From the IMG/VR virus record IMGVR_UViG_2609459797_000007: a stretch of 33,237 nucleotides of DNA, one strand, 5' to 3'. The stretch comes from a virus. Its lineage: Duplodnaviria > Heunggongvirae > Uroviricota > Caudoviricetes. Numbering within the stretch: the first letter of the stretch is position 1; every line of letters starts with the position of its first letter. The notes under the pieces are model-generated. The model was given only the letters and a program-made list of their open reading frames with translations. It was not told where the DNA came from and ran no database searches. This document shows positions 1 through 24,240 of this stretch, piece after piece. The translations under genes were made by a program, and so were the position numbers.

Positions 1-981
1 TTAAAGCGATACGCCACCGGCAAGCGGATTTAGTGAGACAGCATTTTGCAGATAGTCTGGCGAAAGATGCGCGTAAACCATCGTTTGCTGAATGCTGGCA
101 TGCCCTAAAATCTGCTGTAACGCGATGATGTTTCCTCCGTTCATCATGAAATGACTTGCGAAGGTATGACGCAGAATATGAGTTGCCTGGTTCGGTGGTA
201 TGTCTGCTTTTACCGCCTTCAGAGTCAGACAAAATTTTTCATAGTCCACTTTAAACAGTTTCGCGCTTGCCTCCTTTTTGATGAGCTTTTCCAGTTCGGC
301 AGAAATTGGAACAGTACGCTTTTTCCCGTTTTTGGTCTTCAGGAACGTCACACGGCAATTGACGATCTGCGAGGGCTTTAATGTTGCCAGTTCAGACCAT
401 CGCGCGCCGGTGCTGACTCCCAGAAGGGCAATCAATCTTGCATCGCCGGTTAATGCATTTAGCAAACTGCTGATTTCTTCCTTTTCCAGAAATGTCATTT
501 CTGGGTTTTCTTCAGTCAGTGGTGGCAATCCATGCACTGGATGGGTGCCGAAAAACTCTTCCAACTGAATCAACTTGGTGAACATGCCTGAAAAACGGTA
601 CATATCACGGTTAATTGTTGATGCCTTGATACCGTCACGAAGTCGCATAGAACGGTAGTCCATCAGAAGCCGTTTGCTCACGCGGCTAACGGGTATGTCA
701 CCGATGCCGCCGATCGTCTTCGTGAGGTGGTTAAATTCCTTCTCACCGTGTTCATGGTTTTGACCGTGATACTTCCACCAGGCATCCAGTAATTCAGATA
801 GAGATCTGCGATCTGTTCTCTGGCCCGCCCATTCTTTCTGATTAGCGTTCGCTAATGTGTAGCGCTCAAAGGCAACTGCTTCAGCTTTTCTTTCAAATTT
901 CCGGCGGATGCGACGTCCTTCACGCCCGCGGGGTCTGATATCCACTTCATAACGCCCATCATCGAGTCTTTTGATAGTCAT
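1..981 (-). CDS. int: Phage integrase, tyrosine recombinase (P2 Int-like)
   Basis: 326-aa ORF with the tyrosine-recombinase pattern: ARWSEL (Arg), HILRHTFAS (H-x-x-R) and VYAHL (catalytic Tyr) in the C-terminal third. Leftmost prophage gene; its stop codon is at the window edge. Confidence 0.9.
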   Translation of the reverse strand: MTIKRLDDGRYEVDIRPRGREGRRIRRKFERKAEAVAFERYTLANANQKEWAGQRTDRRSLSELLDAWWKYHGQNHEHGEKEFNHLTKTIGGIGDIPVSRVSKRLLMDYRSMRLRDGIKASTINRDMYRFSGMFTKLIQLEEFFGTHPVHGLPPLTEENPEMTFLEKEEISSLLNALTGDARLIALLGVSTGARWSELATLKPSQIVNCRVTFLKTKNGKKRTVPISAELEKLIKKEASAKLFKVDYEKFCLTLKAVKADIPPNQATHILRHTFASHFMMNGGNIIALQQILGHASIQQTMVYAHLSPDYLQNAVSLNPLAGGVSL

Positions 982-3246: not shown

Positions 3247-3414
3247 ATGACAATTCAAACAAATGAACGCGCGCACCTGCTTGGGTTGTTACGTATCAAA
3301 TTGACCTTACTGAAAAAAGAAAAGCTGTCCACCAATGAAATTTATCGCAGCCTGGAAGACTGGATCTACAACAGAGAAAAGGCCGCAGAAATCAAGGAGC
3401 AAAAAAATGGTTAA
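3247..3414 (+). CDS. Hypothetical small protein (55 aa, MTIQTNERAHLLGLLRIKLTLLKKEKLSTNEIYRSLEDWIYNREKAAEIKEQKNG)
   Basis: Not in the supplied ORF track (below size cutoff). ATG at 3247 with an AGGAGG RBS 7 nt upstream. Its 3' end overlaps the methyltransferase start. Confidence 0.4.
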   Translation: MTIQTNERAHLLGLLRIKLTLLKKEKLSTNEIYRSLEDWIYNREKAAEIKEQKNG

Positions 3415-4390
3415 TTCCCCTCTGATCTGGGCGGGCGGCAAGTCTCGCGCGATGCCTCATGTACTGGAGGCTTTGCCAAAGGGTGAATGTCTCGTTGAGC
3501 CTTTTGTAGGTAGTGGTAGTGTCTTTCTGAACACTGACTATAAAACCTATATTCTGTGTGATAGCAACGCAGCGCTTATGAACTTCTATTCAATATTGAA
3601 GAGCAATACTAAATCGTTGCTAGATGTCGCTGCTACTCTATTTGATGGCGGTAATAATGAAGATGCATATTATAAACGCCGCAATGAATTTAATGATTTT
3701 AATCGTGGTTTTCCCCAGCATAATAAAAAAACTTCTGATGGAAAGGTTTATTATCAGAGTGAACTTGTAAAGTTTGCAGCATTATTCCTTTATCTAAACC
3801 GTCATTGCTATAACGGTTTATACCGAGTGAATGGGAAGAATGAATTTAACGTTCCATTTGGTCGTCGCCGCAAGCCAATTTTCCCTGTTGCAGAGATCCA
3901 GCACTTTGCAAAACGAGCATATGAGAAAGGTGCTCAGTTTCTTTGCGCTGATTTCCGTTACACCATCCCTGTTGCTAGTCGCATATTTGAGCGCACAGTA
4001 ATTTACTGTGATCCGCCTTACCTGCCAGCGAGTAAAACGGCTGATTTTACCGCGTACGGCAAACCCTTCACTGTCGATGATCACCGTGACCTGGTTGAGT
4101 CATTGATTACCGCTCATAACAACGAAGGATGCCTGTCTGTTTTTTCCGGTAGCGATACCCCGGAAACCCGCAAAATTTACTACCCGTTCACCCTTAATTC
4201 ATTCGAAATCCGCCGATCTGTAGGGGCCAAATCTCGCAACTTGGCTGGCGAGGTGATCGGCTCTCTACGCGTTTGTGGTTGTTGTGGGCGTACTGGCGGC
4301 GGTTGTCCTGATTGCGGTGCTGTGATGGGTGATGCGACCTATTCAGAAATGGTTGCCTCTGGTGCTTTTGATGATCAGGAGGTGTTCTGA
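3407..4390 (+). CDS. dam: DNA N6-adenine methyltransferase (Dam-like, alpha-class order FxGxG then DPPY) with a Cys-rich C-terminal tail
   Basis: Motif I (VEPFVGSGSVF) and motif IV (VIYCDPPYLPASK) in Dam order. Start taken at ATG 3407 (AAGGAG RBS); the track's upstream start at 3335 lacks an RBS. C-terminal CGCCGRTGGGCPDCG looks like a zinc ribbon. Confidence 0.8.
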   Translation: MVNSPLIWAGGKSRAMPHVLEALPKGECLVEPFVGSGSVFLNTDYKTYILCDSNAALMNFYSILKSNTKSLLDVAATLFDGGNNEDAYYKRRNEFNDFNRGFPQHNKKTSDGKVYYQSELVKFAALFLYLNRHCYNGLYRVNGKNEFNVPFGRRRKPIFPVAEIQHFAKRAYEKGAQFLCADFRYTIPVASRIFERTVIYCDPPYLPASKTADFTAYGKPFTVDDHRDLVESLITAHNNEGCLSVFSGSDTPETRKIYYPFTLNSFEIRRSVGAKSRNLAGEVIGSLRVCGCCGRTGGGCPDCGAVMGDATYSEMVASGAFDDQEVF

Positions 4391-4563: not shown

Positions 4564-4572
4564 GGCGGATTG

Positions 4573-7011
4573 ATGACTTCAGTTCGCCGCGCCCATAGCA
4601 TGACCTCCATGCCGGGAGGCTCGGTTGAGCCAGCCCGGTATGCTTACGCCTGGAATGAGCCTAAACAGGCCATTTCCGTCGATAAGACTCCCGCTGTTGA
4701 CCTATATGAATTGGGTCAAGAGCAGGAGTTTTTCGCATGGGTAGAAGATACCCTCAAGCCGTTACCTTCTTTCATTCGCCGCCGCATTGCTTTTTACATA
4801 AATACCGTTCACGAAGATAAAGGGCGTCATATCGCAAAACTGAAGCTGCGCGATATCGTTAAGCGCGAGCTTCCACACGTCCGTAACGTCACGAATCAAT
4901 ACGCAGTACCAGAAGACAATGATTGGATTATTTTCTCTGAACTAAACCCACTATTTCACACGTTTGAAAATCTGCGTGAGCTAGCGCACCGCTTTAATAA
5001 TCTGGCTGATAGTACCGATGAAGATATTGATTTGTTGGCACAGGACATTGCTATTTATGCCAATGCCGTTTTGGCTGAAGTGAGTGAAGGCGCGAGCGTG
5101 TTTAGTGATGCTGAGTACGGCAAACGCATGGTGCGTGAAGGCTCTAGACTAATTGCGTATTTCAGGTTGGTGGCACCTTGGGCTAAGAAGCGCCGGATGG
5201 CGCCTGATGAAGCGGCGGCGGCAATACAAAAAACCATGCACGATCGCTTTTGGTCACGCCTTCTGCGCAAGTACGCCCGCCGCTGGCGTGAGCATTTGCA
5301 CATTGCTTATGGTGATGTGCGCCGCGATGTTTCACCGTATTGCAGTAAACACCACGTTACACAGTGGGATTCCCGCCGTAAGCGTAGTCGCGAAATTATG
5401 AGCCGTCTTGAACTTGAAGATCAGGTAACTGGCGAGCGCATTTCGCTGATAGAGCAGATTGATAAAAGTATTTCTAACCCTGAAAAGCGCCGCGTTGAGT
5501 TGATGACGCGCATTGGTGGCTTTGAGAAAGTGGCAACAGAAAGCGGTTTTGCCGGTAGTTTCTTCACGTTGACCGCACCGTCTAAATATCATGCTTTTAC
5601 AGCATTCGGGCATCGTAACCATAAATGGAACGGAGCAAGCCCACGCAAAACACAGAACTACCTTAATCACGTCTGGCAACTGATCCGCGCGGAGCTTGCG
5701 CGCCGTGAGATTCCTGTTTTTGGCCTTCGCGTTGCTGAATCTCACCATGATGCTACTCCGCATTGGCATGGCCTTCTGTTCACTGCCCCAGAACATACCG
5801 GCGAGTTGTTGGAAGTGATGGAAGACTACGCCACACGTGAGGATGCAGACGAGCTAACCGGCAAGACTGGCAAGCAACCGCGCTTTGAGCTTAAGCCAAT
5901 AGATCCGGCTTTGGGGAGTGCTACTGGCTATGTTGTTAAGTACATATCTAAAAATATTGATGGCTACGCGCTGGATGGTGAAAGCGACGACGAAAGCGGA
6001 CGTCCACTGAAGGAAACAGCAAAACACGCTACCGCCTGGGCTTCATGCTGGGGCATTCGTCAGTTTCAGTTTTTGGGTGGTGCGCCGGTGTCTGTCTGGC
6101 GCGAGTTGCGCCGCCTGAAGAATCAGGAAATGGCAGATCGTATCAGTCCGGTTTTCGGTGAGTTACATCGCGCCGCACATGCGGGGAACTGGCAGGACTA
6201 CATTACCTTGCAGGGTGGCCCGTTCGTGGCACGGAATAGGCTTGTGTTGCGCGCATGGTATCAGTACCGGGATGAGCCGAGCAGTTACGGCGAGTTTCAG
6301 AGAGTCATTAAAGGCGTAGTCATGCCAGCATCGACTATTCCTCCGGTTGAAACCCGTCTCCATTCTTATCGTATTGTCAAAATGAAGCCAAAAGCAGACG
6401 ACGACGCTGGTCGAGGTTTTGACCTTAAGGGCGCGCCCGCGCCCTCTTGGACTCGTGTCAATAACTGTACCGAGTACAAAAAACAAACAGATTCACCGCC
6501 TGTTTATCCGACAGATCTGACTGTGCCAGATACTGATGCACTCCCTGAACAATTTGAAATTGGTCAATTGAGCCGAGATCAGAGAAAACAAATTGCGGTG
6601 GACCTCAGAAATCACAAACCAAATCAGCGTGTTTCACCTGCTGATCAGTTTGAGGCGCTCGCTTTCAGCATCACTACCGGTGACTGTACCGACTATGACC
6701 GGGTTAGGGCAGAAAGTTATCTGAAAGCAGCACATGCAATCCGGCAGGAAGAAAGCACGGTGAGCGAGAATGTTGCTGCACTTGCTGAAAAGATAATGAG
6801 TTGGGCAAGGTTAAGAAAAATTAAGATTAACCCTGTGCAGGCGCTGAAACTAGCAAGGGGTGAGGAGGTTACAGCGCTCGATACGATTTACCGAGCCAAC
6901 CTAATCACTGGGGAACTTATTGTGACTGGCGTGGACATGCATTGGCGTAAAACTCTTGCAAGACATCAGACAGAGGATCTAACCCTCCGTTGGAGGAAAG
7001 CAATAGGTTAA
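4573..7011 (+). CDS. A: Replication initiation protein A (rolling-circle HUH endonuclease, P2 gpA family)
   Basis: About 812-aa ORF. HUH motif ATPHWHGLLFTAP and paired tyrosines in GYVVKYISKN (Y-x-x-x-Y). Size and position match P2 gene A. The ATG at 4573 is preferred over the TTG at 4570. Confidence 0.85.
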   Translation: MTSVRRAHSMTSMPGGSVEPARYAYAWNEPKQAISVDKTPAVDLYELGQEQEFFAWVEDTLKPLPSFIRRRIAFYINTVHEDKGRHIAKLKLRDIVKRELPHVRNVTNQYAVPEDNDWIIFSELNPLFHTFENLRELAHRFNNLADSTDEDIDLLAQDIAIYANAVLAEVSEGASVFSDAEYGKRMVREGSRLIAYFRLVAPWAKKRRMAPDEAAAAIQKTMHDRFWSRLLRKYARRWREHLHIAYGDVRRDVSPYCSKHHVTQWDSRRKRSREIMSRLELEDQVTGERISLIEQIDKSISNPEKRRVELMTRIGGFEKVATESGFAGSFFTLTAPSKYHAFTAFGHRNHKWNGASPRKTQNYLNHVWQLIRAELARREIPVFGLRVAESHHDATPHWHGLLFTAPEHTGELLEVMEDYATREDADELTGKTGKQPRFELKPIDPALGSATGYVVKYISKNIDGYALDGESDDESGRPLKETAKHATAWASCWGIRQFQFLGGAPVSVWRELRRLKNQEMADRISPVFGELHRAAHAGNWQDYITLQGGPFVARNRLVLRAWYQYRDEPSSYGEFQRVIKGVVMPASTIPPVETRLHSYRIVKMKPKADDDAGRGFDLKGAPAPSWTRVNNCTEYKKQTDSPPVYPTDLTVPDTDALPEQFEIGQLSRDQRKQIAVDLRNHKPNQRVSPADQFEALAFSITTGDCTDYDRVRAESYLKAAHAIRQEESTVSENVAALAEKIMSWARLRKIKINPVQALKLARGEEVTALDTIYRANLITGELIVTGVDMHWRKTLARHQTEDLTLRWRKAIG

Positions 7012-7300
7012 ACGTCAAATATCATTTTCGTCGTCTATGTTGCTATCATCACAAGCTAGATTGAGGTGAAATGATGGTAATTGAAGGCCAGCTTTATGGG
7101 GGTAGTCCAAGCCCAAGCAAAGGGGCATTTAGAAAGAAATGCTTATATTCTGTCAATTATTGTTTTTGATCTTGGAATATTAGTGGGCTTAATTTACAGT
7201 GGGAAAAATATCACTTAACCTTGAAGCAAATATTTTACAGGTTTGGGTTTTAAAAATTTTTCTTTCAAAATAGTTGAAAAATTGGACAGCAATGAAACAT

Positions 7301-7332
7301 GTTGGTAGAAATAAGCCGTTGATTTTACGGCT
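7301..7332. terminator. Hairpin AAATAAGCCGT-tgatttt-ACGGCTTATTT with flanking T/A runs; candidate bidirectional terminator between gene A and the accessory island
   Basis: Perfect 11-bp stem read directly, followed by TTTTG on the + strand. About 40 nt downstream of the island's last gene on the - strand. Confidence 0.45.
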
Positions 7333-7372
7333 TATTTTTGAACACAATCACTATAGAGAACTTATGTCAGAA

Positions 7373-8170
7373 TTAGTCATCTAATGCTCCATCAAAATAG
7401 ATCTTTAATGCATTAAATAATTCTTGATAATGATTGCTATTGAAATCACCAGCTTCCCAAAGTTTGTACTTATCCTTAATGGTGTTTTTTGCAAATCCCT
7501 CTTTAAGGGTTTTGTTTACCACGCCACTTTTATCAAGAGGCTTATGATAAACGTCAACATAGAAGCATCTTACATCAAAATTCGCCCCTGTTGGCTTTAT
7601 TACATTAATATCAGAATAGTAGCAATTGTCTTTAACATGTTGATACGATGAAATATTTAAATGACCTAAAAGAGGTAAGACATCTTTAATATTTCCTTGG
7701 GTCGTGCAATATGCTGTCCACTCTTGTTTATACAAATATTTCAGCCAGTTATTGAAAAGTGTATTAGATTTATCTTTTTGGTAATATATGATCAGGCCGC
7801 CACTATTATCTCTTTTTATATATCGTGTTAATAGTTGTAATAAACCTTCAAAAATTTTCTGGTATCCATAACCAATTTTAGCTTCTGCAATCCAAACAAA
7901 TTCACCACCATTAGTTTTAGTGGTGACAGTTATATCAACACTGCCATTCTTTTTTGTTTGTTCGGTAGCCCGATAACCAAAATGTCCCAGTGATGTTACT
8001 ATTGTATGGCTGAGTTTATCCTCATCATCACAATAGTATTTATCACTTGATGACTCCATGGTTTTTATTATTTCTTCGATATCTTTGAAAAGTTGATTAT
8101 GAAAATCACTTTCAGTTATAAAGTAATCACGACGAACGAGATTAGTAGCAAGTGAATTAGTGTTCATCAT
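7373..8170 (-). CDS. Hypothetical protein (265 aa) with a PD-(D/E)xK-like motif; third gene of the accessory island
   Basis: AT-rich ORF. GSVDITV followed 16 residues later by EFVWIAEAKIG (hydrophobic strand then E-x-K), the classic restriction-endonuclease-fold signature. Start overlaps the upstream gene's stop. Confidence 0.6.
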   Translation of the reverse strand: MMNTNSLATNLVRRDYFITESDFHNQLFKDIEEIIKTMESSSDKYYCDDEDKLSHTIVTSLGHFGYRATEQTKKNGSVDITVTTKTNGGEFVWIAEAKIGYGYQKIFEGLLQLLTRYIKRDNSGGLIIYYQKDKSNTLFNNWLKYLYKQEWTAYCTTQGNIKDVLPLLGHLNISSYQHVKDNCYYSDINVIKPTGANFDVRCFYVDVYHKPLDKSGVVNKTLKEGFAKNTIKDKYKLWEAGDFNSNHYQELFNALKIYFDGALDD

Positions 8171-8597
8171 AATTCACCAGGCAATAAAAACTGAGATATT
8201 TTGGGTCGAAATCTTCAATTTCAACACCATTGTCATTCACCGGAACTTCATTATTAGTCATGAAGTTATTGTACTCGTCCTGATGAATGTCAATTCGTTC
8301 ATTATCAACCATCTCATAACAATATTTGATCTCAAATAAATTAGAATTGCCACCACTAAAAAAGCGGACAATTTCCAATAAGTCGGATGTTTTTTTTGCT
8401 TGAGTAGCAATTTGTAAAGTATGAATAGTATAAATATCAAGCTCAATATTATCAGCAATATAATTTAGTAGGTTGTGATAGTTCTGCAATTTACTCGGTT
8501 TAAAAAAAACCGAGTTTTTGCATAGTTCATCAACCAACTCATGTTGCTTTAAAATAATGGGCAACATTTTTTTATACCGTTCTGCTAAGGATGTCAT
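8157..8597 (-). CDS. Hypothetical protein (146 aa, acidic); second gene of the accessory island
   Basis: ORF overlapping both neighbours (26 nt upstream, 14 nt downstream), consistent with a translationally coupled operon. GGGGTGA RBS 5 nt before the ATG. No recognisable motif. Confidence 0.55.
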   Translation of the reverse strand: MTSLAERYKKMLPIILKQHELVDELCKNSVFFKPSKLQNYHNLLNYIADNIELDIYTIHTLQIATQAKKTSDLLEIVRFFSGGNSNLFEIKYCYEMVDNERIDIHQDEYNNFMTNNEVPVNDNGVEIEDFDPKYLSFYCLVNYDEH

Positions 8598-9651
8598 TTA
8601 TCACCCCATAGTGTGAAACAGTGTCGGCCATTTTATTAAAATAAAAAGCACCACAGAATTGATTGTTTGCCCAGTCATTTTTATTAGGTTCAAATCCTAT
8701 TTCATTCGATAACGATTCTGAACCAATTTTATAATCAAAACGAGCAGAAACACCACATACCTTCAAATTGGATATAGTTGAAGTTGAAGTATTGCCTTTA
8801 TTCGTCTCAACCACTTTTCTGTTTCTGGCGTCATAACTAGGTTTCGTTCTACATTTAAGGCTAGCATCCTCATCACCAACAGGATCGACGAAATCTACCT
8901 GCACTAATCGGCCAAAGGAAGCATCGTTGTATATATTATTAATTGCTTTATAAAAATTGACAGTTTCTAAATTTAAAGAAACATTGTTTTCAGACAAAAA
9001 CTCTAAAAACTTAATTCTTAAATCAGTAATTGCTCGTTCGAAAACGCGACGACCAAGTTTACGATCAACCCTATATTCAACACGACTTAAGTCATTAGGA
9101 ATGAAAACTGTATTGAAAAATTGAACAGGGTATTGGTTTGAGCGTAATTTACTTCTCCCACTGATTTTCTTAATTAACACATAAGAAAAGATAATTGCTA
9201 CACCATCTCCCATGTTTTCGACAGAAGTAATGAAATGCCCTGGTGAAGCAGGTAGTCCACTATCTTCATCAAGCTTCATAGGGAATGCATCACGAAAACA
9301 TTTTTCATAATTAGAATAATTAGCAAACTGAGAAATAGCTTTAAGGTTTCCACCTCGAATAAAATCAATAGCATAGTAATGATTTACAGAGGTTATTATT
9401 TTTAGCAATAATAATTTGAGAGACGCCTCAGTTGCAAGCTTATGAGCCATTCCAGGATTAGAAAGCGTTCGTATGATACTGTCTTTAGTTCCTGCCCATC
9501 GGGTTCCGATCTGGAATCCATAAGGTGTTCCTACGCGACGAAAAAATCCTAATTCTTCAGTTTGCTCAAGAGAAGTAAGAATCTTTTCAACTTCTTTTTG
9601 GTTAAATGTAGGCGCAGATTGGGTGGCTCCAAGCGCAGTTTGAGTAGTCAT
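8572..9651 (-). CDS. Hypothetical protein (359 aa); first gene of the accessory island
   Basis: Long AT-rich ORF with no P-loop, no HUH and no TIR-like pattern that I can see. Sits between A and cos, where P2 carries tin/old. Confidence 0.6.
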   Translation of the reverse strand: MTTQTALGATQSAPTFNQKEVEKILTSLEQTEELGFFRRVGTPYGFQIGTRWAGTKDSIIRTLSNPGMAHKLATEASLKLLLLKIITSVNHYYAIDFIRGGNLKAISQFANYSNYEKCFRDAFPMKLDEDSGLPASPGHFITSVENMGDGVAIIFSYVLIKKISGRSKLRSNQYPVQFFNTVFIPNDLSRVEYRVDRKLGRRVFERAITDLRIKFLEFLSENNVSLNLETVNFYKAINNIYNDASFGRLVQVDFVDPVGDEDASLKCRTKPSYDARNRKVVETNKGNTSTSTISNLKVCGVSARFDYKIGSESLSNEIGFEPNKNDWANNQFCGAFYFNKMADTVSHYGVINDILSRTV

Positions 9652-9905
9652 TTATTCTTCATTCCATTGCTGAGGCAAGTTAAGTCTGTTTAGTTTACCC
9701 AAGCGTTGATTTTATACAACAAAACATGCAGCGTTTAAGCAAGAGATATTAGTGTTTTTTGACATTTTCTACATATTTTCAACTGCACAAGCGTGCACAA
9801 AAACGCACAATAAACAGGGTTTTATTTTTGATGGATCTCCGCAGGATCTGCGCTGGTTAGCAGCGGATCTGCAAGTGCACAAAAACAGGCGTGTTTGTTG
9901 CGCGC

Positions 9906-9924
9906 AGGTGACGGGGGGAAAGCC
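9906..9924. other. cos site, candidate cohesive-end sequence GGTGACGGGGGGAAAGCCC (P2/186 cos-like)
   Basis: G-rich 19-mer resembling the P2 cohesive end as I recall it (GGCGAGGCGGGGAAAGCAC). Lies immediately upstream of the Q-P packaging genes as in P2. Flanked by repeated GTGCACAAAAAC motifs near 9790 and 9872. Confidence 0.5.
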
Positions 9925-10110
9925 CGCGCGGCGGGGGGGGAAGGGGTATACCTCAAATATAGGGAAATTGGCGCAATTCTGGCGCGCTGCTGCGTTCTGT
10001 GTGTTGTGTGCGGGTAATGGCGTGTTTAGATTATGGGGCGCTTAGAATGGCGCTGGCGTGCCGTGTATTGATGTGATGCGGAGAGCGCCGCCGGGATGGC
10101 GGCGGGTTGG

Positions 10111-11172
10111 TTATTTCATGGTTTCCAGCAGGGCGTAAGGTTTAAAGCGGATCACTTCTTCCCCCAGCCAGTCGTTGACGTGCTTCAGCGCTTCCATTGC
10201 TGGCATTAGTTCGTTGATGGCAAACACGCGCGCGGCCTTCTCCACATCACCGAATGAGCCGTTGCCGTCCGGCATGGCCCCCATCAGTTGCGGTGGTACG
10301 CGGTGAGCCGCCAGAATGTCATCGCGTGTCGCTGATTTAATATTTAAAAACTCATCCTTTGCTGATATCTGGCTGAAGGGCATCAGTTGTACCCCGTCTT
10401 TACCGCCGCCTGGCGCGTGGATCACTACGTTCTTAAATGCCCCTTTGTTTCTGGCTCCCGCCAGTGTTTGCTGTATGACTTTTACGCCAGCGTCGTCCAC
10501 CTGTGATGTGCCGATATACAGAATGCATCCGGCATGAGATCCGTTTTCGTAATACATCTTGCGGAACATGTCCGCCGAGTGTGACAGGCTGGCTGACAAT
10601 AGCGCGCCCATGTACTCCGGCATCCCGTAGATCTCCTGATGAATGTCAGGGTTCAACACATGGCAGACAGAGCCGGTTTTAAAAGCTGATTCGTCTTTCC
10701 ACTGCCTGATAAACCAGTATGTATCCAGGTCAATGCCACGCCGGGTGTATTTCGCCGGGGAATGGCGGAGCGGTAGCAGCCCGCCTAGTCGGTTATTTCG
10801 TTCTTCCAGGTAGAAGTTGCCAAACACAAACCAGTCAAGCGCCAGGGCGGAGAACGTCTGGCGAGACAGTAGCGGGTGTGGGATGAAGAAACCCGCCAGC
10901 GCGTTGCGCTTGAAGTACAGCGCTGACTGGTGCCAGGACGCCTTGCCGAATGAGCGCGCAAGCCCGTACCAGTCCACCGGTGTTTCGTAATATCTGCCGT
11001 TATCGGCGCAATACATATTGTCGAGCAGGTCGTAAGCGTCAGCGACCTGGTATGGCCCATCAAAGGTGAAAGCGCTAAGGGCTGGATCGCGCTTCAGTGC
11101 TTCACCAATATCATGTTGCTGTGTACCGTCAGTAAGCATAGTCAGGCCGCTTTCGTGTGTTGTTGTGTTCAT
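10111..11172 (-). CDS. Q: Portal (capsid vertex) protein, P2 gpQ family
   Basis: About 353-aa ORF next to cos and downstream of the terminase ATPase; its ATG overlaps the P stop (TAATG). Size and synteny match P2 Q. The track's longer start at 11253 overlaps P and is unlikely. Confidence 0.8.
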   Translation of the reverse strand: MNTTTHESGLTMLTDGTQQHDIGEALKRDPALSAFTFDGPYQVADAYDLLDNMYCADNGRYYETPVDWYGLARSFGKASWHQSALYFKRNALAGFFIPHPLLSRQTFSALALDWFVFGNFYLEERNNRLGGLLPLRHSPAKYTRRGIDLDTYWFIRQWKDESAFKTGSVCHVLNPDIHQEIYGMPEYMGALLSASLSHSADMFRKMYYENGSHAGCILYIGTSQVDDAGVKVIQQTLAGARNKGAFKNVVIHAPGGGKDGVQLMPFSQISAKDEFLNIKSATRDDILAAHRVPPQLMGAMPDGNGSFGDVEKAARVFAINELMPAMEALKHVNDWLGEEVIRFKPYALLETMK

Positions 11173-12896
11173 TAAAACTCTCTTACGGAACCGCCGCCGC
11201 TGCCGTTCTCGCGTCCAAGTGGCTCGTTGATGATTGCCAGCATATTTGCCCAAGCTAAGTCGCCATGACTGACGCCGCGCGCGCGATCGGTGTCATAGGT
11301 AATTTGTCCACCGGCGGTGGTGATTTTCCTGACGGCGTTGAATGCTGACACTAACGCCTGTTCACTACGGTCATACTCCCAGCGGCCCGCGCGGATCACC
11401 TGCTGCATTTTGAGTACCAGAGTGCGCTTTGATGACAGCGACATGATGAAACAGACCGCCGCCGGGAAGAATTTCTTGACCAGTTGCCAGACCGCTTCAC
11501 CAATGCCGGTACCGTCAATTGCGATGTGCCGGACGTTGTATTTAATGGTCAGGTCTTCGATCACTTTGGCCTGTTCTTCAAACTCCATCCCGCGTAGCTG
11601 GCGCGTCTCTATCGTGCGGAACTTGCCGCCACTGACCAGGGGAGGGGTAACCACGGAAACAGCGCCGCTGTCACCGTTGCCACTGCCGCCGTTGGCGTCG
11701 TAGCCTATCCAGACTTCACGATCGCCAAGCGGGCGGGGGGCGTAGGGTTTCCAGTCCTGCCAGTCGTCGTAGCCGTCCGCGCCGCACGTCAGTAGCTGAT
11801 TAAGTGAGAAAACGGATTCGCCTTCTTTGACGAACTCACACATGTACAGGTTGGTGTATTCATCCGGGGTATTTTCGTCCTGAATTTCTTCCAGATCGGT
11901 GAACTCCCAGCCGTGGTCGATCACGTCCTTCAGGGTGACAATCTGCCGCCAGGTTTTGTCCGGGCACAACAGGCCGCTGTTGAGTGTCTTCCAGCTTGTG
12001 TCGAAGTCTACCCGGCTGGATTTGGCCCGCTTCTCATTCCAGCGCTTGCCCGTCCAGAACGGGTAGGCTTCATGGTTTTCGCTCGATGGCGTTGAAAAGT
12101 AAGTGCGCGTAAGCCCTTTCAGGGTTGCCATAGCTCCAGCTACTTTGCGAAGGTTTGCAAAGTTACCTACCCAGAAAAACTCATCAAAAAACAGGTTGCC
12201 GGTGTAGCTCTGCGCGGTAGCGGCAGACGTGCCGAGAAAATGCAATTCAGCGCCGTTCGACAATAGAATTTTGTCACCGCCTTTTAGTTCTACGTCTACC
12301 TCTTCGGCAATCTTCTGGATGAAGCCACGGAACTGGTGCGCCTGGCGACGCGACGCTGATAGAAAAATCTGGTTGCGCTGATATCCGTGCTTAATGTCAT
12401 CTCGCAGCGCCTGTAATAGTGCCTCGCGGGCAAAGTACCAGGTTGCGCCAATCTGGCGGCTTTTCAGGATCATGCGGTTTCGTTGCTGGCGCTGTTCAAA
12501 CCATCCCTGCTGATGCCAGGCCAGAGAGTCCTGAATCTTTTCCCGTAGCGCGGCGATCTGCGCTTCGGTGAAGTGGTTTTTCTTCTTGCTCGCGCGCGCC
12601 TTCTTGAAGGGTTGCGCCGGTTGCCCTTCTGCCAGTTTCTTCACCTGGCGCGTGAGCGCGTCGATTTCTTTCAGATCGCTGCCGGTCTTCGTTGGTTTCA
12701 TCGCGATTTGGCATAACCGGGCATCAATAGATTGCGTGACGCGCTGAATTGCGGGCGTTTCGTCCCATTCGTCGCGTTTCTTCCACGAATAAACCGTGTT
12801 TGAACTGATACCCATCAGGCGTGAAATCTCTGCTGGCGGGTAGCCCTGCCAGTAAAGCTGCTTTGCTCTCTGTCTTACAAATGCGTCCTGGATCAT
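11172..12896 (-). CDS. P: Terminase large (ATPase) subunit, P2 gpP family
   Basis: Roughly 575-600-aa ORF divergent from O. Start taken at the internal Met (12896) because the track's start at 12980 would run through the late-promoter dyad. Synteny with P2 P. Confidence 0.8.
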   Translation of the reverse strand: MIQDAFVRQRAKQLYWQGYPPAEISRLMGISSNTVYSWKKRDEWDETPAIQRVTQSIDARLCQIAMKPTKTGSDLKEIDALTRQVKKLAEGQPAQPFKKARASKKKNHFTEAQIAALREKIQDSLAWHQQGWFEQRQQRNRMILKSRQIGATWYFAREALLQALRDDIKHGYQRNQIFLSASRRQAHQFRGFIQKIAEEVDVELKGGDKILLSNGAELHFLGTSAATAQSYTGNLFFDEFFWVGNFANLRKVAGAMATLKGLTRTYFSTPSSENHEAYPFWTGKRWNEKRAKSSRVDFDTSWKTLNSGLLCPDKTWRQIVTLKDVIDHGWEFTDLEEIQDENTPDEYTNLYMCEFVKEGESVFSLNQLLTCGADGYDDWQDWKPYAPRPLGDREVWIGYDANGGSGNGDSGAVSVVTPPLVSGGKFRTIETRQLRGMEFEEQAKVIEDLTIKYNVRHIAIDGTGIGEAVWQLVKKFFPAAVCFIMSLSSKRTLVLKMQQVIRAGRWEYDRSEQALVSAFNAVRKITTAGGQITYDTDRARGVSHGDLAWANMLAIINEPLGRENGSGGGSVREF

Positions 12897-12961
12897 GCGG
12901 TGTCCTCTCGTTTCGATGGAGAGATTAACCCGCGCGCGTGGGCCGTTCCCGCTGTTTGGGT

Positions 12962-12988
12962 TGTGGGCTTTCTCTGACAACTAAAACG
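12962..12988. promoter_or_regulatory. Late promoter element: TGT-N12-ACA dyad (12962-12979) within the conserved 18-mer TCTCTGACAACTAAAACG (12971-12988), in the divergent P/O region
   Basis: TGT-N12-ACA is the established binding element for the Ogr family at P2 late promoters. The same 18-mer recurs at 30614-30631. Confidence 0.6.
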
Positions 12989-13052
12989 CGTTGAGACAAT
13001 GACTTACCAACTGACATCATGGAAAAACAGAAACCAACCGGCAGGAAAGAAC

Positions 13053-13892
13053 ATGAGTGAAACCAGCAAACCTACCCGGAAGAAATTCCGCGTTGCCGTC
13101 TCCGGTGCCACCGTTGACGGGCGCGAAATTCGACCAGATCACCTCCGTGATGCTGCCGCGAGCTATAGCCAGGACGTTTACGGCGCTCGCGTGAATGTTG
13201 AGCATTATCTCTCGCCTTATCCAGGCAGTGATTTTGGCGCGATGGGGGATGTTACGGCGCTTAGCGCTGAGGACATTACCGAAGGCCCGCTAGCGGGGCG
13301 CACTGCGTTATATGCGGAAATTGAACCTTCAGCGCAAATGAAGGCGCTGACAGATGCCGGTAAGAAAGTCTATTCCAGTATCGAATTGCACCCGCAATTT
13401 GCACTAAACGGTAAGGCCTACATTGTCGGCTTGGCGATGACTGATACCCCGGCAAGCTTGGGCACTGAGCGTCTGAAGTTTGCGGCCCAGCAGCGTCAGC
13501 AGGTACAGGCGTTCAATCAGCAGCAGGGCGAAAGCGCGATGTTCTCTGATGCCATTGAAGCTGAAACGATCGAACTGGCAGGGCAGCGAAGCGATGAAGG
13601 TAGCAAGTGGTTTAGCCGCATGAAGGAACTTCTGACCAAAAACCATAAAACAGATGGCGAGCAATTCAGCCAGGTGCGCGAAGTGGTTGAAGGTGTTGCC
13701 ACGTCTCAGGCGGGCCTTATCGATCAAGTTGCGGAACTGACAAGCCAGCGCGCTGACGACGCTAAGGAAATCCAGAAGCTGACCAGTGAGCTGACCGACC
13801 TGAAAACCACGCTGGCAAAGCAGGACGCCAACACCTTCAGCCGCCAGCCCGCACAGGGCGGTAACACCGGCGTCGAACAGGCCGATTACTAA
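13053..13892 (+). CDS. O: Capsid scaffolding protein, P2 gpO family
   Basis: About 279-aa ORF; N-terminus KKFRVAVSGATVDGREI agrees with my memory of P2 gpO (FRIGVEGDTCDGRVI). ATG 13053 with RBS chosen so the start lies downstream of the late promoter. Confidence 0.8.
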   Translation: MSETSKPTRKKFRVAVSGATVDGREIRPDHLRDAAASYSQDVYGARVNVEHYLSPYPGSDFGAMGDVTALSAEDITEGPLAGRTALYAEIEPSAQMKALTDAGKKVYSSIELHPQFALNGKAYIVGLAMTDTPASLGTERLKFAAQQRQQVQAFNQQQGESAMFSDAIEAETIELAGQRSDEGSKWFSRMKELLTKNHKTDGEQFSQVREVVEGVATSQAGLIDQVAELTSQRADDAKEIQKLTSELTDLKTTLAKQDANTFSRQPAQGGNTGVEQADY

Positions 13893-20917: not shown

Positions 20918-21524
20918 CAGTCTGTTGCCACCTTCAGCCAGTGATTTTATGCGCGGTGCAGAGGCCGCAACATGGCGCGTGAGTGGTTTACCCGTAGGCC
21001 TGAAAACGTTGTGGAACCCTGATGAATGCCCGGTTGCTTTACTGCCTTATCTGGCTTGGGCGTTATCGGTTGATCGCTGGGATAAAGGCTGGTCAGAACA
21101 GACAAAGCGACAGGTGATTAAATCCGCCTGGCTGGTACACAGGCAAAAGGGAACTATCGCGGCGCTGCGCCGTGTCGTTGAGCCGTTCGGCTTCCTGATA
21201 AAGGTCGTTGAATGGTGGCAGAACGGAGGCGAGCGGGGAACATTTCAACTTGAAATTGGTGTTTCTGATTCAGGGATTACAGAAGAAACCTATCTCGAGC
21301 TTGAGCGTCTGATCGCTGATGCAAAACCATGCTCACGGCACCTGACCGGCCTTGCTATCAGTCTGCAGACTAAGGGGGCAGCATATGCGCATGCCGGATG
21401 TTATAGCGGCGACGTGATGACAATTTTTCCCTATATGCCTGAAGCCGTAGAAGTCAGTGGCGGGGATTTTTCAGGTGGCGCAATTCACATTATTGATACG
21501 TTAGAGGTAACAAATGGCGGCTAA
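20910..21524 (+). CDS. I: Baseplate/tail protein I
   Basis: About 204-aa ORF; its ATG at 20910 overlaps the J stop; synteny. Confidence 0.8.
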   Translation: MNNSLLPPSASDFMRGAEAATWRVSGLPVGLKTLWNPDECPVALLPYLAWALSVDRWDKGWSEQTKRQVIKSAWLVHRQKGTIAALRRVVEPFGFLIKVVEWWQNGGERGTFQLEIGVSDSGITEETYLELERLIADAKPCSRHLTGLAISLQTKGAAYAHAGCYSGDVMTIFPYMPEAVEVSGGDFSGGAIHIIDTLEVTNGG

Positions 21525-22824
21525 ATTCTTTGCCCTGCTGACTAATCAGGGGGCGGCAAAATTATCAAATATGGCTGCATTGGGTGAGAAGTTAGAAATC
21601 ACCTCGCTCGCAGTTGGTGATGGCGGCGGTACATCACCAACACCAAATCAGGCACAGACAAGGCTGGTTAATGAGGTACGCCGTGCCCAGATTAACTCAC
21701 TGTCAGTGGACGAAAAAAACGATAGTCAGATTATTGCTGAACAGATTATTCCTGAATCCGTTGGCGGGTGGTGGATTCGGGAGATCGGACTCTTTGACGC
21801 TGATGGCATCTTGATTGCTGTAGCCAACTGCCCGGAAACCTATAAAGCGACAACAGAGGAAGGGTCGGGGCGTACACAGGTTATCAGAATGATGCTGACG
21901 GTATCGAGTACAGACGCCGTTACCCTTAAAGTTGATCCTTCAATTGTGCTGGCAACCCGCCAGTATGTTGATAACGCTGTCATTGAAGTGAAGAACTACG
22001 CTGATGGACTCATGCGCAGCCACGAACAGTCGCGCAACCATCCTGATGCAACCACTACGGCTAAAGGTTTTACGCAGCTTAACAGCAGTGTGACGGATGA
22101 CCGCGATACACAATCGGCAACCCCGAAAGCCGTAAAAATTGCGATGGATAACGCGAATGCGCGGTTGGCTAAAGATCGCAATCTCGCCGATTTACCTAAC
22201 CCGGCACTGGCGCGCCAGAATATGCAATTAGGTGATAGCTCGACGAAAAACACCGGTACAACTGCCAATACTGTTGCAGCGGGTGATGATGCACGTATCA
22301 CCGGATCGATGCAGAAAAGCCAAAACGGTGCGGATATTCCAGACGTGGCGAAGTTTCTCCAAAACCTTCGTTTAGGAGCGGGCGCTCCGCCGATAGGAAT
22401 TCCGTTCTTCTGGCCGTCGACTGCAATGCCTAATACGGTTATGGATGAGTGGTCGGATATGGTCTTTTTGAAATGGAATGGCGCAACCTTCTCAGCGACT
22501 GAATACCCTAAACTGGCAAGGATTATTCCAGGACTGAAATTAAATGATGTGCGAGGCGAGTTCCTGCGTATTTGGGATGATGGAAGGGGCGTAGATAACG
22601 GAAGGGGGTTACTCAGCTTTCAGGCAGCAACATCTTTCACACAGTATGCTGGTAACTATGACGTAGGCTCCGGTCATGCAATAGGTAATCATGATGGTGT
22701 AGTCGATTACAGTCCTGGATTTTCCAGATTTCCTTATCCCGGCCCAGCTATTGGTGATGGTGTTAACCATGTAACCGTAAGACCACGTAACATCGCATTT
22801 AACTTTTTAGTAAGGGCTAAATAA
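21514..22824 (+). CDS. H: Tail fibre protein H: constant N-terminal part fused to the currently expressed variable C-terminus
   Basis: 436-aa ORF following I. A recombination site lies inside it (22348-22371), so the C-terminal ~150 aa are part of an invertible segment. Confidence 0.85.
   Translation: MAAKFFALLTNQGAAKLSNMAALGEKLEITSLAVGDGGGTSPTPNQAQTRLVNEVRRAQINSLSVDEKNDSQIIAEQIIPESVGGWWIREIGLFDADGILIAVANCPETYKATTEEGSGRTQVIRMMLTVSSTDAVTLKVDPSIVLATRQYVDNAVIEVKNYADGLMRSHEQSRNHPDATTTAKGFTQLNSSVTDDRDTQSATPKAVKIAMDNANARLAKDRNLADLPNPALARQNMQLGDSSTKNTGTTANTVAAGDDARITGSMQKSQNGADIPDVAKFLQNLRLGAGAPPIGIPFFWPSTAMPNTVMDEWSDMVFLKWNGATFSATEYPKLARIIPGLKLNDVRGEFLRIWDDGRGVDNGRGLLSFQAATSFTQYAGNYDVGSGHAIGNHDGVVDYSPGFSRFPYPGPAIGDGVNHVTVRPRNIAFNFLVRAK
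22348..22371. repeat. Left inversion crossover site (hix/gix-like): TTCTCCAAAACC-TT-CGTTTAGGAG
   Basis: Quasi-palindromic 24-26 bp site inside H; matches the right site at 24161-24185 with a complementary central dinucleotide. Confidence 0.65.
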
Positions 22825-23417
22825 TGACAGTCATTTTCGATAAAGACGGGCTGGCTGTTGAAGCCGGAAGTATTCGTGTTTATTACTTTCATCCTGTGAC
22901 AAAGGAATATGTAGGATGGTCTGACGAATTCATTAATATCGGAGTGAGTATGCCAGGTAACTCTACTAATATTGCTCCGGGGAATGAAGTGGCAGGAGAG
23001 GTTATGGTATTTACAGGAAAAGACTGGAAGCGACAAAAAGACCACCGGGGGGAGACTGTCTGGTCTACTGATGACGGTAGCGCCATCACCGTGAACTACA
23101 TTGGCTCTGTTCATGATGGATACACTAATATTGCGCCATCCACCCCCTACGATAAGTGGGACGGGGAAAAGTGGGTAACGGATACCAAAGCCCAGCACGC
23201 GGCAGATAAAGAAGTAGCAAAACAACAACAGCAATCTCTGATAGATTCAGCAATGGCATCAATCGGCATGATACAGCTTAAATTACAGGCAGGGCGTAAA
23301 TTAACCACTGCTGAAACTACGAGGCTAAATTCTGTTCTGGACTACATTGACGCGGTGGAGGCAACTGATACCAGCACCGCGCCAGATATTAAGTGGCCTC
23401 TTCCCCCGGAGTGGTAG
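22824..23417 (+). CDS. G: Tail fibre assembly (chaperone) protein G, active orientation
   Basis: 197-aa ORF immediately after H; its 3' end converges and overlaps with the alternative chaperone gene on the other strand, as in Mu-type G segments. Confidence 0.8.
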   Translation: MTVIFDKDGLAVEAGSIRVYYFHPVTKEYVGWSDEFINIGVSMPGNSTNIAPGNEVAGEVMVFTGKDWKRQKDHRGETVWSTDDGSAITVNYIGSVHDGYTNIAPSTPYDKWDGEKWVTDTKAQHAADKEVAKQQQQSLIDSAMASIGMIQLKLQAGRKLTTAETTRLNSVLDYIDAVEATDTSTAPDIKWPLPPEW

Positions 23418-23814
23418 GCCAAACGGGTTTTTCGGTATCGACTCGCATCAGTAATACCCTGTATTTTTTCCATTCTGACAAAGCGGCGGTTTCTTCTTCC
23501 GTCGCTACTCCTGCATCAACAGCATCCTGACGCCAGTTAATCTCTGAGTCAGCCCGCATACGTAAGTTGGCCTTTCTTAATTCAGCGACAGCGCTAAGTT
23601 CTTCCTGAGTTGGTGGTGGAATATCTACCCATGCTGGCATTCCTGCTATTACATTTCTGTATTTACCTTCGGGTGGCTCCTGCATGAATTCAGTTGCAAC
23701 AGAGTCTTCTATTTCTATTCCATCGTTTGGCCACTCTCCTGCCTTTTGATAGGACGACTTCAGCTCTACAGGAAAGAAAGCATTTTTCTTGGCACTGAAT
23801 ACATATTTTTGCAT
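23389..23814 (-). CDS. Alternative tail fibre assembly protein (G'), silent orientation within the invertible segment
   Basis: 141-aa ORF on the opposite strand; its start follows the stop of the alternative fibre C-terminus (23816). Confidence 0.7.
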   Translation of the reverse strand: MQKYVFSAKKNAFFPVELKSSYQKAGEWPNDGIEIEDSVATEFMQEPPEGKYRNVIAGMPAWVDIPPPTQEELSAVAELRKANLRMRADSEINWRQDAVDAGVATEEETAALSEWKKYRVLLMRVDTEKPVWPTTPGEEAT

Positions 23815-23815
23815 G

Positions 23816-24172
23816 TTAACGTCCTATAGAAATATAACTAAATCGGTATTGCTGAGAATTGTCACTCGTTGATACACGCCATGACGAATTGCTGATATGT
23901 TCAAAATTTACAGAAAGTACAGGCGTAATCGGTCCAGAAGGATTTGACTGGACGGCATCAGACATGACGCTGATAGAAATCAAGGGTTGAGTCGGAAACG
24001 GTATAGGGAAGTTACCGCTGATAAAACGAGTCGTGTTTCCTGAATATGTACCAAACTGCACAATGTGCCCGCTTGGTAATTTGAACCACCCTGTGCCAGA
24101 TGCAAAAGCGCCCATATCCGGTATCTGATTTGCACCTGTCCCCACCTCTCTTTTTGCTGCTTCTTTCAAACC
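23816..24172 (-). CDS. Alternative tail fibre C-terminal cassette (H'), promoterless and start-less, expressed only after inversion
   Basis: Open frame from the right recombination site down to a stop at 23816, encoding ...GANQIPDMGAFASGTGWFKLPSGHIVQFGTYSGNTTRF.... The junction sequence parallels the H junction (FLQN versus FLNV). Confidence 0.65.
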   Translation of the reverse strand, partial: GLKEAAKREVGTGANQIPDMGAFASGTGWFKLPSGHIVQFGTYSGNTTRFISGNFPIPFPTQPLISISVMSDAVQSNPSGPITPVLSVNFEHISNSSWRVSTSDNSQQYRFSYISIGR

Positions 24173-24185: not shown

Positions 24186-24240
24186 ATGCAGATTTGCACC
24201 CTGGCTGGCATCATTCCGGCTTTTGCATGAGGGAAAGCAA

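What the first reader, a model, noticed from the sequence alone, without database searches (positions are those of the whole stretch)
7012..9900. Sharp compositional shift marks the island as foreign cargo
The interval from the end of gene A to the cos-proximal region is markedly more AT-rich than the surrounding prophage, by inspection (long A/T runs, AT-rich codons). It is bracketed by a hairpin terminator (7301-7332) and by AT-rich promoter-like sequence upstream of the first island gene (around 9690-9760, for example TTGTAT-16-TAAACT on the minus strand).
Basis: seen in the sequence. Interest (0 to 1): 0.45.

Follow-up and report, generated by a model that had tools for sequence, protein, structure and literature searches.

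The report
AT-rich cargo in P2 prophage hotspot
The AT-rich stretch is real: it is the swappable cargo slot that P2-family prophages keep between replication gene A and the cos site, here holding a rare, uncharacterised three-gene operon (a DNA-clamp-like protein, a small acidic protein and a restriction-enzyme-like nuclease) that is probably an anti-phage defence system.

Summary
Window 7007-9783 has 33.6% GC against 52.1% elsewhere, and GC3 of 0.25-0.32 against 0.41-0.66.

The two closest E. coli prophages lose homology at the stop codon of gene A (7011). They regain it at about 9784-9824, roughly 100 bp before a cos-like 19-mer. They carry different genes in the same slot. This is the known P2 gpA-gpQ/cos hotspot (Rousset 2022), so "foreign cargo" is supported, but as a phenomenon it is ordinary.

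The cargo is one minus-strand operon of three closely packed genes:
- g2 (146 aa) is an acidic orphan.

The trio stays in the same order in all 23 loci examined. These include P2-like prophages of five genera, a PM2-like Vibrio prophage, a site beside a filamentous prophage, and an island between Septu and a PD-T4-6-like kinase.

It is not the validated "3HP" system. An E. coli orthologue is listed, untested, as system #145 in Rousset's Table S5B. The most likely function is anti-phage defence, with g1 as DNA sensor and g3 as effector. That mechanism is inferred, not shown.

The parts
7007..9783 (.). Variable AT-rich cargo module of the gpA-cos/gpQ hotspot
   Evidence: GC 0.336 against 0.521 elsewhere. 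Homology to relatives L018 and L019 ends at about 6966-7008 and resumes at about 9784-9824.
8572..9651 (-). g1: 359-aa basic protein (pI 9.0) with a predicted RdgC-like fold; first gene of the operon
8157..8597 (-). g2: 146-aa acidic orphan protein (pI 4.7). An alternative start at 8567 gives 136 aa.
   Evidence: No Pfam or PDB hit. 13 clusters, many called from Met11. A homologue lies between g1 and g3 in every locus examined.
7373..8170 (-). g3: 265-aa PD-(D/E)xK nuclease with a restriction-endonuclease-like fold
7301..7332 (.). Hairpin with an 11-bp stem flanked by A and T tracts; probably a bidirectional intrinsic terminator for g3 and for convergent gene A
   Evidence: Fold energy -14.9 (minus strand) and -17.8 (plus strand) kcal/mol, z about -5.
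7012..7300 (.). AT-rich non-coding spacer of the cargo
   Evidence: GC of 7012-7372 is 0.335. No ORF of 60 aa or more. No similarity to any fetched locus. No Rfam match.
9692..9719 (-). Weak sigma-70-like promoter TTGTAT-16-TAAACT, 41 nt upstream of the g1 ATG
   Evidence: Read from the sequence. Matches 7 of 12 consensus positions and is not reported by the scan. The hexamers are conserved in Enterobacter L007 with a diverged spacer.
9784..9906 (.). Conserved cos-proximal backbone containing GTGCACAAAAAC direct repeats (9793-9804 and 9875-9886)
   Evidence: Aligns with L018 and L019. The repeat was found. A TGCAC-rich motif is also present in more distant P2-like prophages.
9907..9925 (.). 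cos-like 19-mer GGTGACGGGGGGAAAGCCC
   Evidence: Matches 15 of 19 positions of the P2/P4 cos core GGCGAGGCGGGGAAAGCAC, as printed in the cloned sequences of PMC9122126 Table S2. Identical in L018 and L019.
4570..7011 (+). Replication gene A (left flank of the hotspot)
   Evidence: Pfam Phage_GPA, E 2.8e-95.
10111..11253 (-). Portal gene Q (right flank of the hotspot)
   Evidence: Pfam Phage_portal, E 3e-14.

Best explanation
Window 7007-9783 is the exchangeable accessory ("moron") module that P2-family prophages carry between replication gene A and the cos site and portal gene Q.

It is a self-contained minus-strand operon: a weak promoter next to cos, three closely packed genes, then an intrinsic terminator. 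It was acquired horizontally from a low-GC gene pool and swapped in by recombination within the conserved flanks.

The operon most likely encodes a three-component anti-phage defence system expressed from the lysogen. In this model:
- g1, a basic protein with the fold of the ring-forming DNA-binding protein RdgC (the fold also used by lambda RexA), binds invading or replicating phage DNA.
- g3, a BamHI-like PD-(D/E)xK nuclease, is the effector that cuts DNA.
- g2, a small acidic protein, couples or restrains the two.

Shown here: the compositional shift, the breakpoints, the hotspot identity, the conserved trio, the predicted folds and the invariant catalytic residues.

Inferred: the defence function (about 0.65), the sensor/adaptor/effector roles (about 0.3), and expression from the proposed promoter.
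For: Composition and codon usage.

Breakpoints against two close relatives that carry other cargo in the same slot.

The locus is the published P2 defence hotspot that holds old and tin in P2 (PMC9122126). An E. coli orthologue of the trio is listed there as hotspot system #145, labelled "DUF5939 | DpnII-MboI".

The trio keeps the order g1-g2-g3 in all 23 loci examined, and the three proteins diverge in parallel. The loci are:
- P2-like prophages of Escherichia, Enterobacter, Serratia and Rahnella.
- A PM2-like Vinavirales prophage of Vibrio.
- A small element with a gpA-like gene and an integrase in Shewanella.
- A site beside a filamentous prophage in V. vulnificus.
- A site beside an integrase remnant in Pseudoalteromonas.
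- A site directly between Septu (PtuA 1e-139, PtuB 4e-76) and a PD-T4-6-like kinase on an integrase-bearing island.

g1 has an RdgC-like predicted fold, and RexA is a documented RdgC structural relative (PMC11077077). g3 has a nuclease fold and invariant catalytic residues. The genes overlap or nearly abut, and none has a transmembrane segment.

The cassette has GC 0.33-0.38 in every host.

The family is rare and patchily distributed. It has 23, 13 and 30 clusters at 90% identity for g1, g2 and g3. This version is in 0 of 5426 complete E. coli genomes, and the P2-type version is in 2.
Against: There is no experimental test of this trio, and none was found in the literature searched.

PADLOC v2 and Pfam do not recognise g1 or g2.

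The RdgC resemblance rests on a predicted structure only. Sequence and profile comparisons with RdgC are negative (hhalign probability 0.2%).

The promoter is weak (7 of 12), and AT-rich DNA of this kind may be silenced in enterobacteria.

Not every hotspot cargo is defensive: Rousset et al. list partition systems and toxins there. The close relative L018 carries a methylase in this slot.
Confidence: 0.7

Rival explanations
1. Toxin-antitoxin or addiction module. The g3 nuclease is a toxin held in check by acidic g2 (with g1 as regulator or co-factor), and its main role is to stabilise the prophage or island rather than to exclude other phages.
For: A small acidic protein is encoded immediately upstream of a nuclease, with coupled translation. 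The trio always sits on mobile elements next to integrases. The Vibrio element also carries a MazF-like toxin, so such modules are typical cargo.
Against: Three strictly co-inherited genes, including a 359-aa DNA-binding-fold protein, are more than a classic two-gene TA pair. g2 has no antitoxin-family or HTH hit. In L022-L024 the trio sits between Septu and a PD-T4-6-like kinase. TA and abortive-infection functions are also not mutually exclusive.
Confidence: 0.15
2. Phage recombination or replication accessory module. An RdgC-like modulator of RecA/DNA transactions plus a nuclease serve the carrier virus's own lytic growth or induction, as RdgC-like "recombination-associated" proteins do in other phages.
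For: The best viral structural matches of g1 are annotated "Exonuclease" and "Recombination-associated protein". RdgC itself acts on RecA and replication restart (PMC11077077). The cassette is adjacent to replication gene A.
Against: The closest backbones lack it and carry unrelated cargo in the same slot, so it is dispensable for the phage. It is carried by unrelated virus types (Caudoviricetes and Vinavirales) and by non-phage islands. It is transcribed convergently to gene A, with its own promoter and terminator.
Confidence: 0.08
3. Solitary restriction enzyme. g3 is a type II-like or modification-dependent (type IV) endonuclease, g1 and g2 are specificity or DNA-loading subunits, and the host is protected by the absence of the target modification or by the prophage's own Dam-like methylase (3335-4390).
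For: The top structural hits of g3 are type II restriction endonucleases, with McrC and MspJI/AspBHI-class enzymes further down the list. A D12-class adenine methylase is encoded 2.6 kb away in the backbone.
Against: No locus has a methyltransferase inside the cassette. The backbone methylase is also present in relatives that lack the trio. This reading would still be a defence function, so it is a sub-case of the best explanation rather than a true alternative.
Confidence: 0.07

Closest known systems
P2 gpA-gpQ/cos defence hotspot ("TO region" holding old and tin in phage P2; Rousset et al. 2022, PMC9122126)
   Same: Same position: between replication gene A and cos/portal Q. The cargo varies between close relatives. 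It is a short, self-contained accessory operon.
   Different: The cargo has no homology to old, tin or any system validated in that paper. It was not recognised by PADLOC v2.
Rousset 2022 Table S5B, P2-hotspot system #145, labelled "DUF5939 | DpnII-MboI" (14 occurrences in E. coli)
   Same: Orthologous trio with the same three proteins. The sequences printed there match those encoded in L001-L006 (P0013 and P0031) and are 45-58% identical to g1-g3.
   Different: It is a divergent version (56% identity for g1) on a very different P2 backbone (gpA 33% identical). It is only catalogued there: no note, and it is not among the systems tested.
3HP ("hp + hp + hp", E. coli E1114; validated against P1 in Rousset 2022)
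   Same: A three-gene operon of proteins with no clear predicted domain, in the same P2 hotspot.
   Different: No detectable homology. hhalign probabilities are below 1% for the three pairings tested: g1 against 3HP proteins 2 and 3, and g3 against 3HP protein 1. The protein lengths also differ (333, 359 and 227 aa).
Lambda RexAB exclusion system
RdgC (E. coli recombination-associated, nucleoid-associated protein; PDB 2owl; Pfam PF04381)
   Different: 7% identity. No Pfam RdgC hit at E up to 5. hhalign probability 0.2%. Encoded on mobile elements in an operon with a nuclease, rather than as a chromosomal housekeeping gene.
BamHI/BglII/BstYI-type restriction endonucleases and other PD-(D/E)xK defence nucleases (HamA of Hachiman, McrC)
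   Same: Core fold and an E...D...ExK catalytic constellation.
   Different: No cognate methyltransferase. An extra conserved C-terminal half (about residues 135-265) contains an invariant PxDxS loop. Obligatorily linked to g1 and g2.

Membership tests
P2-family gpA-gpQ/cos hotspot cargo | Lies between replication gene A and the cos site/portal gene Q of a P2-like prophage | tested here: met
   Phage_GPA at 4570-7011 and Phage_portal at 10111-11253. A cos-like 19-mer at 9907-9925. The layout of integrase, C-like repressor, Cox, capsid and tail genes fits a P2-like prophage.
P2-family gpA-gpQ/cos hotspot cargo | Content differs between closely related backbones while the flanks stay homologous | tested here: met
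   L018 and L019 carry different cargo. Homology stops at the gene A stop codon and resumes at about 9784-9824.
Anti-phage defence system (generic) | Reduces phage plating or burst when expressed | not testable with these tools
The only support is association: the hotspot location, and neighbouring Septu and a PD-T4-6-like kinase.
RdgC family (PF04381) | Sequence match to the family profile | tested here: not met
   No Pfam hit for g1 or any of its 23 homologues at E up to 5. hhalign against E. coli RdgC gives probability 0.2%.
RdgC family (PF04381) | RdgC three-domain fold | tested here: met
RdgC family (PF04381) | Ring-shaped dimer that binds DNA non-specifically | not testable with these tools
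   No multimer modelling or biochemistry was available. pI 9.0 and many invariant arginines are merely consistent with DNA binding.
PD-(D/E)xK nuclease superfamily | Restriction-endonuclease-like alpha/beta core | tested here: met
PD-(D/E)xK nuclease superfamily | Conserved acidic residues and lysine (D...(D/E)xK motif) | tested here: met
   E50, D79, E96, A97 and K98 are invariant in 29 homologues and in loci down to 30% identity.
Rst_3HP (Rousset "hp+hp+hp") | Homology to its three proteins | tested here: not met
   hhalign probabilities of 0.2-0.7% for the three pairings tested: g1 against 3HP proteins 2 and 3, and g3 against 3HP protein 1.
RexAB | RexB-type multi-pass membrane partner | tested here: not met
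   The maximum Kyte-Doolittle 19-residue mean is 1.25, 0.54 and 0.37 for g1, g2 and g3, so no transmembrane segment is predicted.
Type II restriction-modification system | Cognate methyltransferase in the same module | tested here: not met
   No methyltransferase gene lies inside the cassette in any locus.
PADLOC PDC-S54 (candidate single-gene system) | Full-length match to the 410-position profile | tested here: not met
   Only g3 residues 12-137 match profile positions 233-356, E 1.4e-7. This is a shared nuclease domain, not the same protein.

The most novel reading that the evidence does not exclude
The trio is a previously unvalidated three-component anti-phage system. An RdgC-fold, ring-type DNA-binding protein would act as the sensor of phage DNA or of replication/recombination intermediates. 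Through a small acidic partner, it would license a BamHI-like nuclease. This sensor-effector pairing is not described for any named defence system. The system is carried by unrelated viruses (P2-like myoviruses and PM2-like Vinavirales) and by defence islands.
Probability: 0.4. Interest if true: 0.65.

Novelty: new member of a known kind. Interest (0 to 1): 0.42.

Why it matters
The compositional island itself only re-identifies a published hotspot, so it is ordinary.

The value lies in the cargo: a very rare trio (27 representatives among 1.84 billion protein clusters) of strictly co-inherited genes with no annotation. Its predicted folds suggest an RdgC/RexA-type DNA sensor coupled to a restriction-like nuclease. 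If it is validated, three things follow:
- It would add a new defence system.
- It would give a second, nuclease-coupled example of the RdgC fold used for phage exclusion, which could help explain how RexA-type sensors recognise infection.
- It would show the same defence cassette moving between tailed, tailless (PM2-like) and possibly filamentous prophages.

It is directly testable by cloning about 2.6 kb.

Tried and rejected
- Known defence-system and family libraries. PADLOC, Pfam, NCBIfam and PHROGs give no informative hit for g1 or g2. g3 gets only a weak partial PDC-S54 hit, and unknown-function families phrog_9664 and phrog_12777 match g3 and g1.
- Profile searches of g1, g2 and g3 against PDB sequences found nothing significant.
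- Identity with Rousset's validated 3HP system is rejected.
- Sequence-level kinship of g1 with RdgC is rejected.
- Nucleotide matches of the island: none in complete E. coli genomes apart from 58 bp of the cos-proximal flank, and none in the phage collection.
- Insertion by a transposon or IS: no flanking direct or inverted repeats.
- Structured RNA in the island: no Rfam match at E up to 1.
- Homology of the 360-bp spacer 7012-7372 to anything fetched: none.
The terminator was rescued by direct folding and the promoter only by conservation in one orthologue.
The genome-contig scan returned only two species.
- The supplements of the 2026 NAR paper on P2/P4 hotspots are not held, so I could not check whether it lists this trio.
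- An invertible tail-fibre segment at 22.8-24.5 kb: no convincing inverted repeats.
Full report
**1. The observation**

The window is a P2-like prophage. It has an integrase (1-981, minus strand), a C-type repressor, Cox, a D12-class adenine methylase (3335-4390), replication gene A (4570-7011), portal Q (10111-11253), terminase P, and capsid and tail genes. A host cation-efflux gene follows at 32317.

A 500-bp sliding window drops from 0.47-0.54 GC inside gene A to 0.31-0.37 between 7001 and 9750. It jumps back to 0.54-0.58 from 9751 on. Using the homology breakpoints below, 7007-9783 has GC 0.336 against 0.521 for the rest (binomial z = -19.5). A/T runs of 6 or more are three times denser there. 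Of all 2689-bp windows, the lowest starts at 7126. Windows outside the island never fall below 0.459 (mean 0.524, sd 0.031).

GC3 is 0.25, 0.32 and 0.25 in the three island genes, against 0.41-0.66 in 17 other prophage genes. Preferences are inverted for Leu, Arg, Gln, Asn, Tyr and His codons.

**2. Boundaries and the "foreign cargo" interpretation**

No complete E. coli genome and no phage record contains the island DNA. Two complete E. coli genomes do carry closely related backbones.
- In strain ES1 (L018: gpA 89.5%, gpQ 93.7% aa identity) the slot holds a Dam-like methylase and a 71-aa ORF, at backbone-like GC (0.516).
- In strain AMSCJX04 (L019: gpA 85%, gpQ 90%) it holds an unrelated three-gene, AT-rich (0.38) cargo.

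Nucleotide homology to both relatives ends at the stop codon of gene A (window about 6966-7008; the stop is at 7009-7011). It resumes at 9784-9824. The right limit (9900) includes about 100 bp of conserved cos-proximal backbone.

That backbone contains two GTGCACAAAAAC repeats (9793 and 9875). It also contains, at 9907-9925, a 19-mer that matches the P2/P4 cos core at 15 of 19 positions.

No direct or inverted repeats bracket the island. Cargo exchange by recombination in the conserved flanks is therefore more likely than transposition. This is an inference.

This is exactly the locus that Rousset et al. described as a defence hotspot of P2-like phages. It lies between gpA and gpQ, next to cos, and holds old and tin in P2 itself. 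They found 1,650 gene arrangements in E. coli (PMC9122126).

**3. Anatomy of the cargo**

All coding capacity is on the minus strand: g1 at 9651-8572 (359 aa), g2 at 8597-8157 (146 aa) and g3 at 8170-7373 (265 aa). g2 overlaps g1 by 26 nt; many gene callers instead start it at Met11 (8567), 4 nt after the g1 stop. g3 overlaps g2 by 14 nt.

It has an 11-bp perfect stem flanked by an A-tract and a T-tract. It folds well on both strands (-14.9 and -17.8 kcal/mol, z about -5). It is plausibly a bidirectional terminator for g3 and for convergent gene A. It is inside the cargo, not at its edge, and the next 290 bp (7012-7300) are AT-rich non-coding DNA with no relatives.

It matches only 7 of 12 consensus positions and fell below the scan threshold. 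The region as a whole has fewer promoter-like hits than shuffled controls. However, the orthologous Enterobacter cassette has TTGAAT-16-TAAACT at the same place with a diverged spacer, which gives modest support. I treat the promoter as plausible but unproven.

**4. What the three proteins are**

*g1.* It has no Pfam, NCBIfam or PADLOC hit, for itself or any homologue, and no profile hit in the PDB. The family is tiny: 23 clusters at 90% identity in 5.8 billion, and 27 representatives at 50% identity in 1.84 billion. Nearly all are 340-365 aa.

*g2.* It is acidic (pI 4.7) and has no hit anywhere. It has a conserved C-terminal F-x6-FY motif.

None of the three proteins has a transmembrane segment.

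**5. The trio is a mobile unit**

Every locus found through any one of the three proteins contains all three, in the order g1-g2-g3, and their identities fall in parallel. The contexts are:
- True P2 prophages of E. coli, between Q and A (L001-L006).
- Enterobacter P2-like prophages (L007-L010).
- Serratia and Rahnella P2-like prophages (L011, L012).
- A small Shewanella element with a gpA-like gene and an integrase (L013).
- A site beside a filamentous (Zot/Rep_trans) prophage in Vibrio vulnificus (L014-L016).
- A site beside an integrase remnant in Pseudoalteromonas (L017).
- A metagenomic contig, beside an integrase (L021).
- The accessory end of a PM2-like (Vinavirales) temperate phage of Vibrio cyclitrophicus (PQ189315, L025).
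- Three metagenomic contigs, directly between a Septu system (PtuA 1e-139, PtuB 4e-76) and a PD-T4-6-like Ser/Thr kinase, on an island with an integrase and UmuDC (L022-L024).

The cassette has GC 0.33-0.38 in all of these hosts, whatever the local GC. Cargo and backbone relatedness are decoupled. The trio is absent from the two closest backbones. It is 65-70% identical in a prophage with 81% gpA, and 45-58% identical in P2 proper, where gpA is 33% identical.

It is rare. This version occurs in 0 of 5,426 complete E. coli genomes, and the P2-type version in 2.

**6. Most likely function and rivals**

Several features together are the standard signature of an anti-phage defence system. I rate that at about 0.65:
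- a validated defence hotspot;
- carriage by unrelated temperate viruses and integrase islands;
- a position between Septu and a PD-T4-6-like kinase;
- patchy, rare distribution and low GC;
- a strictly conserved nuclease active site;
- closely packed, overlapping genes consistent with co-expression.

The proposed mechanism is that g1 clamps or recognises phage DNA or replication/recombination intermediates, as proposed for RexA. This would release or recruit the g3 nuclease, with acidic g2 as adaptor or inhibitor. This rests on fold analogy only (about 0.3).

Rivals:
- A toxin-antitoxin or addiction module (0.15), which is not exclusive with abortive infection.
- A recombination or replication accessory for the carrier phage (0.08). 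This is weakened because the closest relatives lack the trio and unrelated viruses and non-phage islands carry it.
- A solitary or modification-dependent restriction enzyme (0.07). No methyltransferase is ever inside the cassette. This would still be a defence function.

**7. Relation to what is known**

The E. coli orthologue is printed in Rousset's Table S5B as system #145, "DUF5939 | DpnII-MboI", with 14 occurrences and no comment. It is absent from the tables of tested systems.

The three-gene system with no clear predicted domain that they did validate (against P1), now called 3HP, is unrelated: hhalign probability is below 1% in the three pairings tested.

Full-text searches for RdgC or RdgC-like proteins in phage defence returned only the RexA structure paper and unrelated work. 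The 2026 NAR survey of P2/P4 hotspots reports that many unannotated hotspot genes are defensive (6 of 8 randomly chosen P4 loci). Its supplements are not held, so I could not check for this trio.

**8. Verdict**

The finding is correct, but as stated it re-discovers a known hotspot: ordinary, and well explained. The cargo is a new, uncharacterised member of the class of hotspot-borne candidate defence operons. Its pairing of an RdgC-fold protein with a nuclease is unusual, and it has a notable cross-virus distribution. That merits a moderate score and a simple cloning test.

Noticed in passing
L019:3655-6758 (E. coli AMSCJX04, NZ_CP058308.1): The same hotspot slot in a close relative holds a different AT-rich (GC 0.38) three-gene minus-strand operon. 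It has a 469-aa protein with an ELLDNAERH motif reminiscent of a GHKL-ATPase N-box, a 114-aa protein and a 253-aa hydrophobic protein. None has a PADLOC hit, so this is another unannotated candidate system.
   Followed up: partly
L025 (PQ189315.1) 11223-13498; L014-L016; L013: The same g1-g2-g3 trio is carried by a PM2-like (Vinavirales) temperate phage of Vibrio cyclitrophicus. It also lies beside a filamentous prophage in V. vulnificus and on a small Shewanella element with a gpA-like gene and an integrase. The cassette therefore crosses virus classes.
   Followed up: partly
L022:5164-12591 (metagenomic contig ERR12652137_23986): A distant copy of the trio sits between a PD-T4-6-like Ser/Thr kinase and a complete Septu pair (PtuA/PtuB), near an integrase and UmuDC. 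An unannotated 158-aa gene lies immediately upstream of g1.
   Followed up: partly
window 3251-4000 (gene 3335-4390, + strand): There is a second, milder GC dip (0.39-0.41) over the 5' half of a D12-class DNA adenine methylase gene in the early region. Relatives carry one or two methylases here, and L018 carries an extra one in the hotspot. This may be a second variable spot.
   Followed up: partly
window 22500-24550: The tail-fibre region has lower GC (about 0.44). It contains, on the opposite strand, a second tail-fibre C-terminus (23816-24532, Gp53-like_C) and a second Caudo_TAP assembly gene (23389-23814), facing the forward fibre and its adjacent downstream ORF (21514-23417). This resembles an invertible or alternative fibre cassette, but only short, imperfect inverted repeats were found.
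   Followed up: partly
window 9784-9906: The conserved stretch between cargo and cos carries an exact 12-nt direct repeat, GTGCACAAAAAC (9793 and 9875). TGCAC-rich motifs recur upstream of the cargo in distant P2-like prophages. They may be packaging or host-factor recognition sites, or the recombination substrate for cargo swapping.
   Followed up: no
window 8567-8597: The start of g2 is ambiguous. ATG at 8597 gives 146 aa and overlaps g1 by 26 nt. ATG at 8567 gives 136 aa, starts 4 nt after the g1 stop, and is the start most database entries use.
   Followed up: partly
window 7584-7373 (g3 residues 197-265, invariant P211/D213/S215): The C-terminal half of g3 contains an invariant PxDxS loop that the structure model predicts with low confidence (pLDDT below 50 at residues 213-217). 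It is conserved down to 30% identity, so it may be a partner-binding or regulatory site.
   Followed up: no
window 32317-33237: A host cation-efflux (CDF-family) gene begins here, so the right prophage end lies at about 32.1-32.3 kb. The integrase ORF at the left reaches the first base of the window. The attachment sites were not located.
   Followed up: no
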